In this document: piece after piece, positions 9,009-20,981 of the stretch | Numbering within the stretch: the stretch's first letter is position 1 | How the letters are laid out: each line of letters starts with the position of its first letter | Virus record (IMG/VR): IMGVR_UViG_2529293049_000007 | DNA length: 20,981 nt | From: a virus | Taxonomy: Duplodnaviria; Heunggongvirae; Uroviricota; Caudoviricetes | Direction: 5' to 3' (one strand) | Made by a program: the position numbers and the translations under genes | The notes under the pieces: model-generated | Databases searched by the model: none | What the model was told of the DNA's origin: nothing | What the model saw: the letters and a program-made list of their open reading frames with translations, nothing else

Positions 9009-9337
9009 CAGTTCACCACCTGTTTAAACTCTGCGCTGAACCCAACACGCAACATACTGACCTGCGACGACCATTTTGCGCAGGTCACCTTTATCTGCCT
9101 GTAACCATAAGGCGGCGTCCACAGAAAGGCCTTCCAGCCCCCGTGCTCAGCCAGAAACGACTCCAGCGCCATGGCCTCCTCACGGGAGACAGACAGCGTC
9201 ACGCTGTACGTTTTCAGGTCAGCGTTCAGCCCGGCAGGCGCACGCTGGGAATAGCCATCACCAAAGCGCACCTCCCTGACGGAAGGAGCCGATGTCACAT
9301 CCATCCCGGGTTTCACTTTCCAGCGGAAGGTTTTCAT
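9008..9337 (-). CDS. M: tail tip assembly protein M
   Basis: 109-aa ORF, same length as lambda gpM; ATGA overlap with the H stop. Confidence 0.9.
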   Translation of the reverse strand: MKTFRWKVKPGMDVTSAPSVREVRFGDGYSQRAPAGLNADLKTYSVTLSVSREEAMALESFLAEHGGWKAFLWTPPYGYRQIKVTCAKWSSQVSMLRVGFSAEFKQVVN

Positions 9338-11946
9338 CGTCCACCTCCGGAGAACAGTCCACCATCACGCATCTGTGTCTGAATTTCATCACGGGCACCC
9401 TTGCGGGCCATGTCATACACCGCCTTCAGAGCAGCCGGACCTATCTGCCCGTTCGTGCCGTCGTTGTTAATCACCACATGGTTATTCTGCTCAAACGTCC
9501 CGGACGCCTGCGACCGGCTGTCAGCCAGACTGCCCGGTGTACCGACATAACCACCGGTGGCATAGCCGCGCATCAGCCGGTAGAGATTCCCCACGCCAAT
9601 CCGGCTGGTTGCCTCCTTTGTGAAGACAAATTCACCACGGTGAACAATCCCCGCTGGCTCATATTTGCCGCCGGTTCCCGTAAATCCTCCGGTTGCAAAA
9701 TGGAATTTCGCCGCAGCGGCCTGAATGGCTGTACCGCCTGACGCGGATGCGCCGCCACCAACAGCCCCGCCAATGGCGCTGCCGATACTCCCGACAATCC
9801 CCACCATTGCCTGCTTAAGCAGAATTTCTGTCATCATGGACAGCACGGAACGGGTGAATCCCCGCCAGTTCTGTTCGCTGCCGGTCAGCATCGCCGCCAT
9901 ATTCTGTGCAATACCGTCAAAGGTCTGCGTGGCCACACTTTTAACCTGCGAAAAACTGTCCGTCGCACTTTCCGCCCACTCTCCCCAGCCGGACTTCATC
10001 CCGGCCATCCAGCTTCCACGAAGCTGCTCCTCCGCAGACCAGGTGTTCTTCAGTGCCGATGTGGCCTTCGCCAGCGCAGCCGGATTATCACCGTACACCT
10101 CACGAAGGCGCTGCTCTTCCGACTCCCGCTGCGCCTGACGGTCGGTGAGGCCGCGGGCTTTTGCGCTGATTGCCGCCTGCTTCGCGCTTTGCTGCTGTTC
10201 AAACCGCGCCGCCTGCTGTGCCAGCTCATTCAGCCGCTTCTGGTGTTCAATCTTGTCTCCCAGCTCAGCCAGCTGGCGTTTGTACTCCAGCGTCTCTTTC
10301 TCATGAGCCAGCAGGGATTTTTCCTGCTCAGATAACTGCCGTTTCGTGGCGGCCTCTTTCAGGACCACATACTGACTTTCCGCCTTCCATAAATCACGGC
10401 GCTGCCGGCTGATTTTCTCATTCGCACCGCTGTGTTTTTCCAGCGTCCTGAGCTCAGCTTCAAGGGCAAGCAGAGCCTCTCTTGCCTGCTCCTCTTCCCT
10501 CTCCCCGGCAGAGCGCGTTTTCGGTGATGTATGCTTTTTACCTGTCAGCTCTTCAGCCAGACGGCTGACGGCTTCCTGCTGCCCAGGACCTTTGCTGACG
10601 CCTGTTGCACGCGAGCGGTTGATGTACCCCATTTCCCCCTGGCGTATACGCGCATCCCGTTCCGCAATGGATTTTCTCAGCGCCAGTTCATCGCGTTTTG
10701 TTTTCTCAATAAATACGCGGTTCTCTTCTGCCAGTTCACCAAACAACGCACCAACGCCGGGCACATTCTTTGTCGTTTCCCAGGCTGACTGAATAAATTC
10801 AGCCAGCGCCAGATCCCCCTGCACAAGCAGCAGCTTCACCTGTTCAACGGTTCCGGCCACCACGTCAGTGATCAGACTGAGTGCCCCCAGTGTATGATCA
10901 CCTATCCATGCCCATGCGTCAGAAGTCCAAGTTTTAACATCGTCCCAGATTTTTTCCACCGGCGTGGCCGCTTTATCAAGTTGCTCCAGACGTGCATTCA
11001 TGACATCCGCAAACAGGGACATCGCCTCCGTCACCGCAGCCTGTTTACCTTTCGTGCGCTCAAGCTCATCAATATGGCGTAACTGGGAAACGCTCAGGAA
11101 GTTATACTGCTGATTCAGGGAGGCCAGCGCCTTCACCGGATCTGCTGCAATCCCTTCAAAGGCTTTTTCCACCTTCCCGGCATCGTCCCCCACCGTCTGC
11201 AGCCATCTCTGAGAGGTTTCCCCCATGATCCGTAGCTGCCCGGCGGTATATTTCCCGCTTTCTGCCTGACGGGCCAGATTTTCTGCCGCCTGTCTGATAC
11301 CACCACCGGCTTCATCGCTGATCACCCCGGCCATTTTCCACAATTCTGCCGTTGTGGTGGCAGCCGCCCCTCCGGTCAGGATCAGTGAACGCAATAAGGC
11401 CCGGTCAGCCTGCTCTGCCTGCCAGGCGGCGGCAGCAAGCGCGGCCAGTACGGCAACCCCGCCACCTGCCGCCACACGGGCCACCGACATAAATCGTCCC
11501 AGCTCACCGGCATTCCGGGCATTTTCAGCCAGTGCATTTGCCGTATCTGACAGCGACTCCTCTGATGATTCAGAGGCATCCCTGATCCCGAGAAGTTCCT
11601 CCTTCAGCAGGGTAAGCAGGCTGAGCGGTCCACCGAATGAATCGCTGATCTGCCCCCCCTGCTGCAGCATGATAAGGAAGGGATTCTGACCACCGGCAAG
11701 CTGAGTGACAATATCCGTGAACTGTGCGGGCAGTGTGCGCATGGCAGCCTTATACTGTCCGACTGATATCCCGGCTTTTTGTGCAGCCAGCGCCTGTCGG
11801 CTCAGCCCCTGTTCAACAGTACTGGCGGTTTTTCTGGCATCCGCCTCCAGACTGGAAAAATGACGGCGTACCCGGGCCATCTGTTCATCAAACCGGGCCG
11901 CATCCAGACTCAAATCAATAACCAGATCACCCGCTGGCTGGGACAT
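9334..11946 (-). CDS. H: tail tape measure protein H
   Basis: 870-aa ORF (lambda gpH is about 853 aa), largely alpha-helical and Ala/Gln/Glu-rich, with a Gly-rich C-terminal segment; start overlaps the end of the T frame. Confidence 0.95.
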   Translation of the reverse strand: MSQPAGDLVIDLSLDAARFDEQMARVRRHFSSLEADARKTASTVEQGLSRQALAAQKAGISVGQYKAAMRTLPAQFTDIVTQLAGGQNPFLIMLQQGGQISDSFGGPLSLLTLLKEELLGIRDASESSEESLSDTANALAENARNAGELGRFMSVARVAAGGGVAVLAALAAAAWQAEQADRALLRSLILTGGAAATTTAELWKMAGVISDEAGGGIRQAAENLARQAESGKYTAGQLRIMGETSQRWLQTVGDDAGKVEKAFEGIAADPVKALASLNQQYNFLSVSQLRHIDELERTKGKQAAVTEAMSLFADVMNARLEQLDKAATPVEKIWDDVKTWTSDAWAWIGDHTLGALSLITDVVAGTVEQVKLLLVQGDLALAEFIQSAWETTKNVPGVGALFGELAEENRVFIEKTKRDELALRKSIAERDARIRQGEMGYINRSRATGVSKGPGQQEAVSRLAEELTGKKHTSPKTRSAGEREEEQAREALLALEAELRTLEKHSGANEKISRQRRDLWKAESQYVVLKEAATKRQLSEQEKSLLAHEKETLEYKRQLAELGDKIEHQKRLNELAQQAARFEQQQSAKQAAISAKARGLTDRQAQRESEEQRLREVYGDNPAALAKATSALKNTWSAEEQLRGSWMAGMKSGWGEWAESATDSFSQVKSVATQTFDGIAQNMAAMLTGSEQNWRGFTRSVLSMMTEILLKQAMVGIVGSIGSAIGGAVGGGASASGGTAIQAAAAKFHFATGGFTGTGGKYEPAGIVHRGEFVFTKEATSRIGVGNLYRLMRGYATGGYVGTPGSLADSRSQASGTFEQNNHVVINNDGTNGQIGPAALKAVYDMARKGARDEIQTQMRDGGLFSGGGR

Positions 11947-12789
11947 ATCTCACACCTCCGGAAATCCCCGCTGAAGCCATCATTAATGCAACATCATCCT
12001 CGCTGACATCCACCACATCCGCAGAAGGTGAAATATCGCGCCCTCCGTCCCCTCTGAACCGGACGCCTCCGGCAACTCCTGTCGCTTTCTGCATCAGCAT
12101 TTCTTCCTCGTCCGGCATCTCCGTCTGCTCTTCCTCACACGCTGGAGCAAGCAGACTGAAATCCGCCGGATGCATATCCGGATCGCCAAAAAACAGGCTG
12201 AGTACGGCGTACATCAGCCCGGAAAAATGAGCGTCCAGTTGGGTATCCTGAAAATAATGCGTGCAGTAAAAACGTCGCCAGTCGGCATATTCGGTGGATG
12301 TCATCCCGGCAAGCATGGCGCGCCAGTCGGGTCTCCCCATCTCTCGCGCCAGTTTCAGGACAAAGTTCAGCTCGCCTTCGAATGCTTTTTTGATGTTACC
12401 GGCTCAGTCGCTTCTGCTTTCCCGGTTTGTTCAGGATCGGCATCGTGCCGGTTATCCAGCATACCTGAAAGATAAAGCACCCGGTTCGTTGCCTGATTCA
12501 GTGCATCAGCAGGCCATCCCAGCATCACTTCACGGCGGATCTGCTGCATCTCTGTCTCCGGAGAGGCCAGAGTGCCTTTGAGGGAATGGGTATGCCATAG
12601 CGACATCGCCACAAGCAGGGATGCCGTTTCCAGATATCGCTGGTTAATGTGCACGACATCATGCTTCGTTGTCTCCTGTTGTTCTGCGTCTGAAACAAAC
12701 TTTATATAATCAAACCGCTGCAGCGCAGACAATTCGGAAAGCGTGACGGACATACCGTTATATTCAAATTGTTCTGTTTTCAGAAACAT
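11927..12789 (-). CDS. T: tail assembly chaperone G-T fusion made by programmed -1 ribosomal frameshift
   Basis: T frame (stop at 11927) is -1 relative to G and open from the slippery site through to the H start; the T-specific part is 11927..12391. Confidence 0.8.
12367..12789 (-). CDS. G: tail assembly chaperone G
   Basis: 140-aa ORF, same length as lambda gpG, between V and the T frame; ends ..TSKKHSKAS. Confidence 0.9.
   Translation of the reverse strand: MFLKTEQFEYNGMSVTLSELSALQRFDYIKFVSDAEQQETTKHDVVHINQRYLETASLLVAMSLWHTHSLKGTLASPETEMQQIRREVMLGWPADALNQATNRVLYLSGMLDNRHDADPEQTGKAEATEPVTSKKHSKAS
12385..12391 (-). other. -1 frameshift slippery heptamer A AAA AAG for G-T
   Basis: Minus-strand AAAAAAG with zero-frame codons AAA-AAG, six codons before the G stop; in the correct X XXY YYZ register for the -1 T frame. 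Confidence 0.6.
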
Positions 12790-12802: not shown

Positions 12803-13555
12803 TTACCCTGCAGCGCCCGCTTCAGTAACGGTGACTTCAGCCACTGCGGCGAACTGACCATTTCCGCTCACCACAGGGATCTGCACCTTACCTGTCGCCA
12901 CGCCGTTTACCGTAATTGTCATATCTTTCACACTAATGGTGGCTTTCGACGGATCGGCGGAAACCGCTCTGAACGTCTTGTCGGTTGCACTTTCCGGCTC
13001 AAAAGAAACCGTCAGGGTGGTTGTTTTCCCTTTTGCCACCGTACCGGATGCCGGCGTCACCTTAATCGCACTGACCGGCGTAATTTTGCTGCGTTCTTCC
13101 GCTACAGAAGGTTTACCCACGTTAGTGACTTTCACCGTGCGGGTGATCACTTCTTTCGCCGTCACGGCCTTACCGATACTGCTGACCCAGCCACGAAACA
13201 CATCCACCGTGCCATTCGGAAAACGGATTTTATAGGCCCGGACATCGCCGCTTTCAAACCAGCCTATAAGCCCTTTCTGGCCTTCCTCTCCCGGTTTCCA
13301 GGCCAGCGTAAAACTGGTATCACCTGCAGATTTCTGCCCCTGCCCGGTCGCGGTCCAGTCCGCGTCTTCATCATCCAGGTAGTTATCATCGTAGGATTCT
13401 GCCGTCATCTCGCCCGGCGTCAGATCCTTCACCTTAGCCAGTCGCTGCCAGTCATCGTCTGACAACGGGTTTGCATAAGCATCACCCTTGCCGTTGTAAA
13501 CCCACAGAGTGGTACCGGCACCTTTTACCGGCTCAAGGGGATTTGGTGTTGCCAT
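12803..13555 (-). CDS. V: major tail protein V with C-terminal Ig-like domain
   Basis: 250-aa ORF (lambda gpV is about 246 aa); C-terminal ~90 residues have a Big_2-like pattern ([28 protein letters not shown]...). Confidence 0.9.
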
Positions 13556-19883: not shown

Positions 19884-20086
19884 AACCTCACTCCCAGCGG
19901 ACGACGGCGACGCCGGGTTGTCCCCAGTACCGACTCCGCATCATTGATCGCCCGGTTAAGCTCATCCAGAGAAGCCGCCGTATATTCAATTCTGCGACCA
20001 TCTTTCTGGACAGACACCACCCGTTTACCGGTTAATAAATCAAGGCGCGCCTGACGCAGCGCCTGTAGTTCAGCGACTGTAACCAT
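19880..20086 (-). CDS. W: head-tail joining protein W
   Basis: 68-aa ORF, same length as lambda gpW, with ..LTGKRVVSVQKDGRRIEYTA..; GGAGGAG RBS; overlaps the A stop and the B start. Confidence 0.9.
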   Translation of the reverse strand: MVTVAELQALRQARLDLLTGKRVVSVQKDGRRIEYTAASLDELNRAINDAESVLGTTRRRRRPLGVRL

Positions 20087-20981
20087 TCACTCCTCCGGAC
20101 AGCTTCGCTGCCAGTTCTTTAAGGGTTGGCCGGGTCGTCTCTTCTTCCCGGGATTTTGCCAGTACAGCCAGATCAAGCTGCCAGCGTTGCACGGACACAC
20201 GTAATGCCGCGTAGGCATACACCAGGCAGTCCAGCGCTTCGTTACGCCGCTTTTTGTTATCCCACAGCAGACGCATCTTTCCTTTTTCCCACTTCTCCAC
20301 AAGCTCTTCCGCGACCAGTTGCTGCGCCTCTGTCTGCGAAAAAATCTCCGGATCATCAGGAAAACGGATGGCATACGACGTGGCTTCATCCACAGGCGTG
20401 GGATCGGCTTTCATACGGGCATAGAGAATTTCTTTTGCGGTGTCCGTCCCCACTTCACACAGATACACGCCCCGCTGATTGCGGGTTTTTGGCATGGTGA
20501 TCACCGGCTTGCCATAGACAGATGCGCCTTTTACCGGCAGCACCCGGAAAACACCGTGTTTTTTTGACCTCTGATAAACGATTTCGCCATCGATCCCCCC
20601 GATGTCCCAGCAGACACGGGAAATAGTCATTTCGGTTCCGTCTGCATGGCGGTATTTTTTGTTGATCGCCGCATCCAAACGTAACAGCGTCTCTTCCTCA
20701 TCGGGACGCCCCATAATGATGATTTTATCCACCAGAAAGGCTTCCTCTCCCGGAGCCCATCCCCAGACATACATCTCGAAACGGTTTCGCTGCGAGTCAA
20801 TGCCCGCCGTCAGATAAACCACCCGGGCAGGCACCGCCGCCGTGTAACGCACAACCTTATCCATCAGTACCTGGTGATCGAGTTTTTCGCCCACGGCCTC
20901 TTCCCAGGTCTCGCCCAGCGTGGTGTTCACAAAGGTTTTCAGGCCGTTGGGATCTTTCAGTGCATCCAGCCAGTCATAGAC
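20070..20981 (-). CDS. A: terminase large subunit A, C-terminal ~300 codons (5' end lies beyond the window)
   Basis: Frame stays open up to the window edge at 20981 (the GTG at 20930 is internal); position immediately upstream of W as in lambda. Confidence 0.85.
   Translation of the reverse strand, partial: VYDWLDALKDPNGLKTFVNTTLGETWEEAVGEKLDHQVLMDKVVRYTAAVPARVVYLTAGIDSQRNRFEMYVWGWAPGEEAFLVDKIIIMGRPDEEETLLRLDAAINKKYRHADGTEMTISRVCWDIGGIDGEIVYQRSKKHGVFRVLPVKGASVYGKPVITMPKTRNQRGVYLCEVGTDTAKEILYARMKADPTPVDEATSYAIRFPDDPEIFSQTEAQQLVAEELVEKWEKGKMRLLWDNKKRRNEALDCLVYAYAALRVSVQRWQLDLAVLAKSREEETTRPTLKELAAKLSGGVNGYSR

What the first reader, a model, noticed from the sequence alone, without database searches (positions are those of the whole stretch)
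12367..12430. G-T frameshift appears to use A AAA AAG rather than the lambda heptamer
Lambda makes G-T by -1 frameshifting at G GGA AAG. Here GGGAAAG is present near the 3' end of G (plus 12417-12423) but its zero-frame codons are GGG-AAA, the wrong register, and the -1 frame hits a TGA at 12404-12406 just downstream. An in-register A AAA AAG lies six codons before the G stop at 12385-12391, and from there the -1 frame is open into T.
Basis: partly seen in the sequence, partly recalled or inferred. Interest (0 to 1): 0.5.

Follow-up and report, generated by a model that had tools for sequence, protein, structure and literature searches.

The report
Lambda-type G-T frameshift, A AAA AAG allele
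This E. coli prophage very probably makes its tail-assembly fusion protein G-T by ribosomal slippage at exactly the same codons as phage lambda, using the textbook E. coli slippery sequence A AAA AAG instead of lambda's G GGA AAG, which is an ordinary, unannotated variant of a well-known mechanism.

Summary
The genes lie on the minus strand. G runs 12789..12367. A AAA AAG lies at 12391..12385 in the X XXY YYZ register (TCA AAA AAG, S133-K134-K135). GGGAAAG at 12423..12417 is read GGG-AAA, the wrong register. The -1 frame has a TGA at 12406..12404 and is then open for 152 codons into T.

This is not a new site. The heptamer starts at nucleotide 399 of G in both this prophage and lambda, so only the P-site codon differs. 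T-frame similarity to lambda gpGT begins at the heptamer. The upstream GGGAAAG is a non-conserved coincidence, absent from 20 of 67 close relatives.

Across the gpG family the site carries three main alleles:
- G GGA AAG in lambda
- A AAA AAG here and in a second clade
- G GAA AAG in phi80, mEp237 and most other Enterobacterales

The A AAR core is invariant. Published reporter data give A AAA AAG and G GGA AAG equal efficiency. A AAA AAG is already accepted for another E. coli prophage tail chaperone family.

Public records annotate G and T here as separate genes. Interest is low. A candidate downstream helix with some covariation is the only mildly novel lead.

The parts
12367..12789 (-). Gene G, the tail assembly chaperone: 140 aa, zero frame, stop TGA at 12369..12367.
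   Evidence: ORF list and translation. Pfam PF06894 Phage_TAC_2, E=2e-34. 42% identical to lambda gpG without gaps.
12385..12391 (-). Slippery heptamer A AAA AAG. In the zero frame it reads (TC)A AAA AAG = S133 K134 K135, and after the -1 slip AAA AAA G.
   Evidence: Sequence. Same nucleotide offset (398) in G as lambda's G GGA AAG. It is the only dual re-pairing site in the overlap. Conserved in all close relatives. Heptamer positions 4-6 are invariant in 75 family sequences.
11927..12403 (-). The -1 frame ORF encoding the T domain. It is open from just after the -1 frame TGA to the stop at 11929..11927, and it is entered at 12385 after the shift.
   Evidence: Translation. Pfam PF06223 Phage_tail_T, E=1.3e-11. 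The predicted 287-aa G-T fusion is 56% identical to lambda gpGT, with a continuous alignment across the junction.
12404..12406 (-). TGA in the -1 frame. It is the upstream limit of the 34-nt window in which a productive shift can occur.
   Evidence: It is lost (ACT to ACA) in 5 of 67 relatives without loss of the heptamer.
12417..12423 (-). Out-of-register GGGAAAG (read GGG AAA G). It is a decoy and not part of the signal.
   Evidence: Register. The -1 frame stops four codons later. Occurs at chance frequency. Absent from 20 of 67 close relatives.
12370..12376 (-). 5' arm (GGCGAGC) of a candidate stimulatory helix. It starts 8 nt after the heptamer and ends at the G stop codon. This is inferred, not shown.
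   Evidence: Fold of the 80 nt downstream: -31 kcal/mol, z=-2.4. In the family alignment the helix is 81% paired, against 28-46% when slid, and pair 16:84 reads GC 31, AU 17, CG 10, UA 1.
12308..12314 (-). 3' arm (GCUUGCC) of the candidate helix. It lies inside T codons M-L-A.
12316..12351 (-). GC-rich inner hairpin enclosed by the candidate helix. It lies in T codons LAREMGRPDWRA.
   Evidence: It is 77% paired across 39 sequences, but both arms are constrained by conserved protein sequence.
9334..11946 (-). Tape measure gene H. Its start overlaps the end of T.
   Evidence: Pfam PF06791 and PF09718.
12803..13555 (-). Major tail tube gene V, immediately upstream of G.
   Evidence: Pfam PF16461, E=2.4e-69.

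Best explanation
Genes G and T of this lambdoid E. coli prophage are expressed as in phage lambda. Most ribosomes translate G to its stop and make the 140-aa chaperone gpG. A few per cent slip back one nucleotide while tRNA-Lys occupies AAA (P site) and AAG (A site) of A AAA AAG (12391..12385). They re-pair on AAA AAA and continue in the -1 frame, producing a 287-aa G-T fusion (...EPVTSKK|AFEGELNFVLKLAREMGRPDW...).

The site is orthologous to lambda's G GGA AAG. Only the P-site codon has changed (Gly GGA to Lys AAA), so both slipping tRNAs are now tRNA-Lys(mnm5s2UUU).

Shown here:
- the sequence anatomy and register
- orthology of the site with lambda's
- purifying selection on the -1 frame from the heptamer onward

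Inferred:
- that the fusion protein is actually made, and at what ratio
- that a helix starting 8 nt downstream stimulates the shift
For: 1. Context. G (PF06894) and T (PF06223) lie between V and H inside a complete lambda-type module of terminase, portal, protease, E, FI, FII, Z, U, V, G, T, H, M, L, K, I, J, Lom and tail fibre.
2. Orthology. The heptamer sits at the same nucleotide offset in G as lambda's experimentally mapped site.
3. Uniqueness. It is the only in-register dual re-pairing site in the 34-nt overlap, and the only one of 17 in-register heptamers in the window that leads to a long -1 ORF.
4. T-frame similarity. Similarity to lambda starts exactly at the heptamer (KKAFEGELNFVLKLAREM against GKVFDGELSFALKLAREM), and there is none upstream of it.
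5. Coding signature. Between the G stop and the annotated T start, variation across 39 relatives is concentrated at T-frame third positions (entropy 0.51, 0.49 and 1.18 for codon positions 1, 2 and 3). The annotated ATG is a Phe codon in most relatives, so T has no start of its own.
6. Conservation. Heptamer positions 4-6 (AAA) are invariant in 75 unique family sequences, and the A-site Lys is invariant in the protein alignment.
7. Efficiency. [quoted passage not shown]
8. Precedent. A AAA AAG is accepted as the site in another E. coli prophage tail chaperone, ECs1801. An HK97-like tail-chaperone cluster, reported among the predicted frameshift clusters tested experimentally (heptamer not stated in the passage read), gave 6-7% frameshifting (PMC3711429).
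Against: There is no protein-level evidence for this prophage. All public annotations seen list G and T as separate CDS with no slippage. The exact 287-aa fusion is absent from a collection of about 15 billion proteins, whereas lambda gpGT is present.

No SD-like motif of 4 nt or more lies within 20 nt upstream (read). The bare heptamer gives only about 0.3% in reporters, so a useful rate needs a stimulator that has not been demonstrated. RNAalifold found no family-wide consensus structure.
Confidence: 0.9

Rival explanations
1. T is translated independently from the ATG at 12340, as annotated in RefSeq and GenBank, and no frameshift occurs.
For: RefSeq PGAP and several GenBank records annotate T as its own CDS starting at this ATG. 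The Pfam T-domain match begins downstream of it.
Against: The 16 -1 frame codons upstream of the ATG are conserved with lambda and carry a coding signature of third-position variation. The ATG is TTY (Phe) in most relatives, so it cannot be the family's start. GAGAG abuts the ATG with no spacer, so there is no usable SD. In lambda the functional product is gpGT (PMC5009743).
Confidence: 0.04
2. RNA polymerase stutters on the A6 run and inserts an extra A into some transcripts. Standard translation of these gives the same G-T protein.
For: An inserted A would give an identical protein (...TSKKAFEG...). Homopolymer slippage is used in some bacterial genes (PMC3711429).
Against: Documented programmed transcriptional slippage uses runs of more than 7 A or more than 8 T (PMC3711429), and here the run is only 6 A. 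Orthologous sites G GGA AAG and G GAA AAG have runs of 3-4 A yet keep the same architecture. The invariant feature is A AAR in the ribosomal register.
Confidence: 0.03
3. The shift uses the upstream lambda-like GGGAAAG (12423..12417), or some other position in the 3' end of G.
For: The string is identical to lambda's heptamer and lies near the 3' end of G.
Against: It is read GGG AAA G, so neither tRNA can re-pair in -1. The -1 frame stops at 12406..12404. It is not at the position of lambda's site. It occurs at chance frequency and is absent from 20 of 67 close relatives.
Confidence: 0.01

Closest known systems
Phage lambda G / G-T programmed -1 frameshift at G GGA AAG (Levin, Hendrix & Casjens 1993; Xu, Hendrix & Duda 2004, 2013)
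   Same: The protein families are the same (PF06894 and PF06223) and so is the gene order V-G-T-H. The heptamer has the same nucleotide offset in G and lies six codons before the G stop. The A-site codon AAG and the shift direction are the same. The fusion proteins are 56% identical.
   Different: The P-site codon is AAA (Lys) instead of GGA (Gly). The heptamer is therefore A AAA AAG, the junction is Lys-Lys rather than Gly-Lys, and both slipping tRNAs are tRNA-Lys.
E. coli dnaX and IS911/IS3-type A AAA AAG frameshift signals
   Same: The heptamer and the tRNA-Lys chemistry are identical (PMC6924986; PMC4066793).
   Different: There is no upstream SD-like element. The candidate downstream structure is a 69-nt helix-closed domain rather than the dnaX hairpin, and it is unproven. 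The frameshift product here is longer than the zero-frame product, whereas in dnaX it is shorter.
A_AAA_AAG_25 cluster: ECs1801 tail assembly chaperone of E. coli O157 prophage Sp9 (Sharma et al. 2014, Table S4)
   Same: It is also an E. coli prophage tail chaperone gene between the tail tube and tape measure genes, with an in-register A AAA AAG at its 3' end. Its -1 PRF is listed as 'safely inferred'.
   Different: It belongs to an unrelated chaperone family. There is no detectable sequence similarity to this G (BLASTP E=1.2), and its heptamer abuts the stop codon.
phi80 / mEp237 / N15-type gpG genes
   Same: They belong to the same gpG-T family and have the same site position.
   Different: They carry G GAA AAG, a non-canonical heptamer in which the P-site GAA would re-pair on GGA. 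This is the commonest allele across Enterobacterales (44 of 75 unique sequences).

Membership tests
Lambda-type tail assembly chaperone G/G-T with programmed -1 frameshift | Two overlapping ORFs lie between the major tail protein gene and the tape measure gene, with the second in the -1 frame. | tested here: met
   V at 12803-13555, G at 12367-12789, -1 ORF at 11927-12403, H at 9334-11946.
Lambda-type tail assembly chaperone G/G-T with programmed -1 frameshift | The proteins are homologous to gpG and gpT. | tested here: met
   PF06894, E=2e-34, and PF06223, E=1.3e-11. G is 42% and G-T 56% identical to lambda.
Lambda-type tail assembly chaperone G/G-T with programmed -1 frameshift | An in-register slippery sequence lies inside the overlap, at the position of lambda's mapped site. 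| tested here: met
   A AAA AAG lies at nucleotide offset 398 of G, identical to lambda's G GGA AAG. It is the only dual re-pairing site in the overlap.
Lambda-type tail assembly chaperone G/G-T with programmed -1 frameshift | The downstream ORF has no start of its own, and its conservation extends up to the slip site. | tested here: met
   T-frame similarity starts at the heptamer. The coding signature holds between the G stop and the annotated ATG, and that ATG is Phe in most relatives.
Lambda-type tail assembly chaperone G/G-T with programmed -1 frameshift | The heptamer is identical to lambda's G GGA AAG. | tested here: not met
   Here it is A AAA AAG. This is not a defining feature of the wider family. 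Its heptamers include G GGA AAG, A AAA AAG, G GAA AAG and G GCA AAA.
Lambda-type tail assembly chaperone G/G-T with programmed -1 frameshift | A G-T fusion protein is made at a few per cent of G and is needed for tail assembly. | not testable with these tools
   No proteomic or genetic data are available. The exact fusion sequence is absent from the protein collection.
dnaX-type A AAA AAG signal (heptamer + upstream SD + downstream stem-loop) | An A AAA AAG heptamer in register. | tested here: met
dnaX-type A AAA AAG signal (heptamer + upstream SD + downstream stem-loop) | An SD-like sequence lies 6-17 nt upstream. | tested here: not met
   The upstream 20 nt, GCGACTGAGCCGGTAACATC, contain no 4-mer of TAAGGAGGTGA (read).
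dnaX-type A AAA AAG signal (heptamer + upstream SD + downstream stem-loop) | A stable structure starts 5-9 nt downstream. | tested here: inconclusive
   A candidate helix starts 8 nt downstream and shows some covariation. RNAalifold gives no consensus, there is no Rfam match, and the arms lie in conserved coding sequence.

The most novel reading that the evidence does not exclude
The lambda-family G-T site may be an allelic series on a fixed scaffold. The invariant A AAR (tRNA-Lys in the A site) and a conserved helix starting about 8 nt downstream would do the work. In the window the arms are 12376..12370 and 12314..12308, and pair 16:84 covaries as GC, AU and CG. On this reading the P-site codon (GGA, AAA, GAA or GCA) is freely exchangeable, perhaps tuning the G:GT ratio or its dependence on host tRNA-Lys thiolation. 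If so, lambda's classic frameshift has a hitherto undescribed RNA stimulator. That would explain why lambda reaches about 4% when the bare heptamer gives about 0.3%.
Probability: 0.3. Interest if true: 0.4.

Novelty: new member of a known kind. Interest (0 to 1): 0.15.

Why it matters
The main value is practical. The G-T fusion of a very common E. coli prophage tail module is not annotated. Matches covering at least 80% of this G-T stretch occur in 642 of 5,426 complete genomes, including the O104:H4 outbreak strain and Stx1a phages. T is given a start codon that most relatives lack.

Correct annotation would be join(12789..12385, 12385..11927) on the minus strand, with ribosomal slippage.

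Biologically, the three natural alleles at one orthologous site (G GGA AAG, A AAA AAG, G GAA AAG) form a ready-made series. They could be used to test how P-site codon identity and tRNA-Lys modification set the G:GT ratio.

Tried and rejected
1. Upstream GGGAAAG as the functional site. Rejected on wrong register, the -1 stop, chance frequency and lack of conservation.
2. Upstream SD-like stimulator. None was found.
3. Family-wide consensus structure by RNAalifold. Essentially nothing: -1.3 kcal/mol and no compensatory pairs.
4. Rfam scan of 12200-12480. Only a sub-threshold chance hit.
5. Prior annotation of the fusion.
   - The exact look-up was negative for this prophage and positive for lambda.
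   - The homology search with the 287-aa fusion returned no hit covering more than 53% of the query, not even lambda gpGT, so it is uninformative.
   - None of the six GenBank or RefSeq records inspected shows a joined CDS.
6. Sharma et al.'s published A_AAA_AAG tail-chaperone cluster (ECs1801). I expected it to be this gene family, but it is an unrelated chaperone family in prophage Sp9.
7. Xu et al. 2013 (PMC3762263) could not be read because it is not held. I therefore could not check what Levin 1993, Xu 2004 or Xu 2013 say about downstream elements or about this allele.
8. Over-representation of the bare heptamer in the window. Not significant.

Full report
**What is in the sequence.** The genes around the finding are on the minus strand.
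- ORF 12789..12367 encodes a 140-aa protein ending ...EPVTSKKHSKAS*.
- The string AAAAAAG occupies 12391..12385. The zero-frame codons are TCA AAA AAG (S133 K134 K135), so it has the X XXY YYZ register needed for tandem -1 slippage. AAG lies six codons before the stop at 12369..12367.
- GGGAAAG occupies 12423..12417 but is read ACC GGG AAA GCA, the wrong register.
- The -1 frame has a TGA at 12406..12404 and is then open to 11929..11927.

**Context.** Pfam assigns the ORF to PF06894 (lambda tail assembly chaperone G, E=2e-34) and the -1 ORF to PF06223 (minor tail protein T). The flanking genes are V (tail tube) and H (tape measure). The whole window is a lambda-type morphogenesis module running from terminase, portal and protease through E, FI, FII, Z, U, V, G, T, H, M, L, K, I and J to Lom and the tail fibre gene.

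The 931-nt G-T stretch is 100% identical to a prophage of E. coli O104:H4 (2011C-3493 and related outbreak strains) and 99.4-99.6% identical to Stx1a-converting phages. Matches covering at least 80% of it occur in 642 of 5,426 complete E. coli genomes.

**Comparison with lambda.**
- Lambda G (J02459 9711..10133) ends GCG GGA AAG TGT TCG ACG GTG AGC TGA.
- The two G proteins align without a gap over all 140 residues (42% identity). The heptamer begins at nucleotide index 398 in both genes. The two heptamers are therefore the same site, and only the P-site codon differs (AAA here, GGA in lambda).
- Simulating the shift gives a 287-aa fusion that is 56% identical to lambda gpGT (279 aa), with a continuous alignment across the junction: KKAFEGELNFVLKLAREMGRPDW against GKVFDGELSFALKLAREMGRPDW. 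Upstream of the heptamer the two -1 frames show no similarity.

**Is it more than chance?**
- The bare strings are not enriched. AAAAAAG occurs 5 times against 2.45 expected, and GGGAAAG 3 times against 3.08.
- The position is what is special. Of 17 in-register X XXY YYZ heptamers in the long minus-strand ORFs, this is the only one followed by a long -1 frame (152 codons, against 34 or fewer for the rest).
- Within the 34-nt overlap it is the only place where both P- and A-site tRNAs can re-pair.
- All 67 close relatives examined keep ACATCAAAAAAGC, while the upstream GGGAAAG is GGGAAAA or GGTAAAG in 20 of them. The upstream copy is a coincidence.

**Evidence that the -1 frame is read from the heptamer.**
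- In a gapless alignment of 39 diverse family members, the region between the G stop and the ATG that RefSeq uses as the T start varies mainly at T-frame third positions. The entropies are 0.51, 0.49 and 1.18 for codon positions 1, 2 and 3.
- That 'start' codon is Phe (LAREF) in most relatives.
- T therefore has no initiation codon of its own across the family and must be reached from G.

**Family survey.** Loci were taken from one genome per species, from IMG/VR and from named phages. Among 75 unique sequences the orthologous site carries the following alleles.

| Heptamer | Unique sequences | Where |
|---|---|---|
| G GAA AAG | 44 | phi80, mEp237, Enterobacter, Kluyvera, Proteus, Providencia and others |
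| G GGA AAG | 17 | lambda-like |
| A AAA AAG | 7 | this clade with TCA; a second clade at 47-49% identity with GCA or GTA |
| G GCA AAA | 3 | rare |
| A GAA AAG | 2 | rare |
| G GGA AAA | 1 | rare |
| A GGA AAG | 1 | rare |

Heptamer positions 4-6 are invariant, and the A-site Lys is invariant in the protein alignment. The conserved core is thus A AAR read by tRNA-Lys in the A site, and the P-site codon is exchangeable. A AAA AAG is one ordinary allele.

**Literature.**
- Sharma et al. 2014 (PMC4066793, Table S3) measured -1 frameshifting for all heptamers in E. coli, as below.

| Heptamer | No stimulator | IS911 stimulators | IS3 pseudoknot |
|---|---|---|---|
| AAAAAAG | 0.29% | 4.3% | 39% |
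| GGGAAAG | 0.28% | 3.8% | 43% |

  The two are equivalent.
- Their Table S4 lists 'G_GGA_AAG_4 gpG [true]' and 'A_AAA_AAG_25 ECs1801 tail assembly chaperone [true]', the latter 'safely inferred'. I checked ECs1801. It lies in O157 Sakai prophage Sp9 and ends AGA AAA AAG TAG, but it is an unrelated chaperone family.
- Antonov et al. 2013 measured 6-7% frameshifting for an HK97-like tail-chaperone cluster.
- A AAA AAG in E. coli prophage tail chaperones is therefore established, but I found no record of it for the lambda gpG family.

**Annotation status.** RefSeq and GenBank annotate G and T here as separate CDS. The exact fusion sequence is absent from a collection of about 15 billion proteins that does contain lambda gpGT.

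**Mechanism and stimulators.**
- No SD-like motif precedes the heptamer.
- Lambda shifts about 4% of the time in vivo (PMC3296357), roughly ten times the bare-heptamer value, so some stimulator is expected. This is an inference.
- The 80 nt downstream fold more stably than shuffles in the window (-31 kcal/mol, z=-2.4), in lambda (-36.4, z=-3.7) and in an Enterobacter G GAA AAG relative (-41.2, z=-4.2).
- The common feature is a helix whose 5' arm (GGCGAGC, 12376..12370) starts 8 nt after the heptamer and abuts the G stop. It pairs with GCUUGCC (12314..12308) and encloses a GC-rich hairpin.
- On 75 unique sequences this helix is 81% paired, against 28-46% when the partner is slid. Pair 16:84 shows GC 31, AU 17, CG 10 and UA 1.
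- On a rough NJ tree the A:U state appears in at least three places.
- Caveats:
  - Both arms lie in conserved coding sequence.
  - The structure was derived from one of the aligned sequences.
  - The covarying columns are only 68 nt apart, so a shared local haplotype is possible.
  - RNAalifold gives no consensus.
  - Sharma et al. found only a weak, non-significant hairpin for the lambda cluster.
- I treat the helix as a candidate, not a finding.

**Rivals.**
- Independent initiation of T at 12340 is contradicted by the coding signature upstream of that codon and by its absence in relatives.
- Transcriptional slippage on six A's would give the same protein. However, it is below the run length used in known cases (more than 7 A), and it cannot explain the orthologous G GGA AAG and G GAA AAG sites.
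- Use of the upstream GGGAAAG is excluded by register and by the -1 stop.
- A junction peptide (TSKKAF...) would confirm the site but could not separate these sub-mechanisms, because the A-run makes all the products identical.

**Verdict.** This is a new, unannotated member of a well-known kind: a lambda-type G-T -1 frameshift carrying the classic E. coli heptamer at the orthologous site. Interest is low (0.15). The allelic series and the candidate downstream helix are the only leads with some novelty.

Noticed in passing
window 12308-12376 (minus strand): A candidate frameshift-stimulating helix, GGCGAGC (12376..12370) pairing with GCUUGCC (12314..12308), starts 8 nt after the heptamer and encloses a GC-rich hairpin. 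On 75 family sequences it is 81% paired, and pair 16:84 reads GC, AU, CG and UA. To my knowledge this has not been described for lambda G-T.
   Followed up: partly
L224 (phi80), L223 (mEp237), L094-L136, L225-L301: The commonest heptamer at the orthologous G-T site across Enterobacterales is the non-canonical G GAA AAG (P-site GAA would re-pair on GGA), found in 44 of 75 unique sequences. Rare variants A GAA AAG (L112, L301) and A GGA AAG (L303) show that heptamer position 1 is not strictly conserved.
   Followed up: partly
window 2113-2119 (minus strand), in ORF 1405-2718: A second in-register A AAA AAG lies at codon 201 of the 437-aa tail fibre gene (PF08400 plus collagen repeats). The -1 frame stops after 7 codons, so slippage there would give a truncated fibre of about 208 aa.
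   Followed up: no
window 20559-20565 (minus strand), in ORF 20070-20930: An in-register A AAA AAA lies in the terminase large-subunit gene (PF20454). The -1 frame runs 34 codons, the second longest after the G-T site.
   Followed up: no
window 12338-12340 (minus strand): The ATG that RefSeq and GenBank use as the start of T is the Met of the LAREM motif. It is a Phe codon (LAREF) in most family members, so the public annotation of T as a stand-alone CDS is probably wrong for this whole prophage clade.
   Followed up: yes
L079-L091, L117, L120 (genome contigs): Lambda-type G genes, with a 3' end identical to lambda's over the 39 nt compared, turn up in assemblies of unrelated organisms (Neobacillus, Kitasatospora, Shewanella, Paenibacillus, Leeuwenhoekiella and others). 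Most of these contigs are short or of very low coverage (about 1x where the title states it). This is most likely lambda control-DNA contamination.
   Followed up: no
L060-L062, L065, L066 (close relatives): In 5 of 67 close relatives ACT GAG is ACA GAG. This removes the -1 frame TGA and extends the open -1 frame to 13 codons upstream of the heptamer. The heptamer itself is unchanged.
   Followed up: yes
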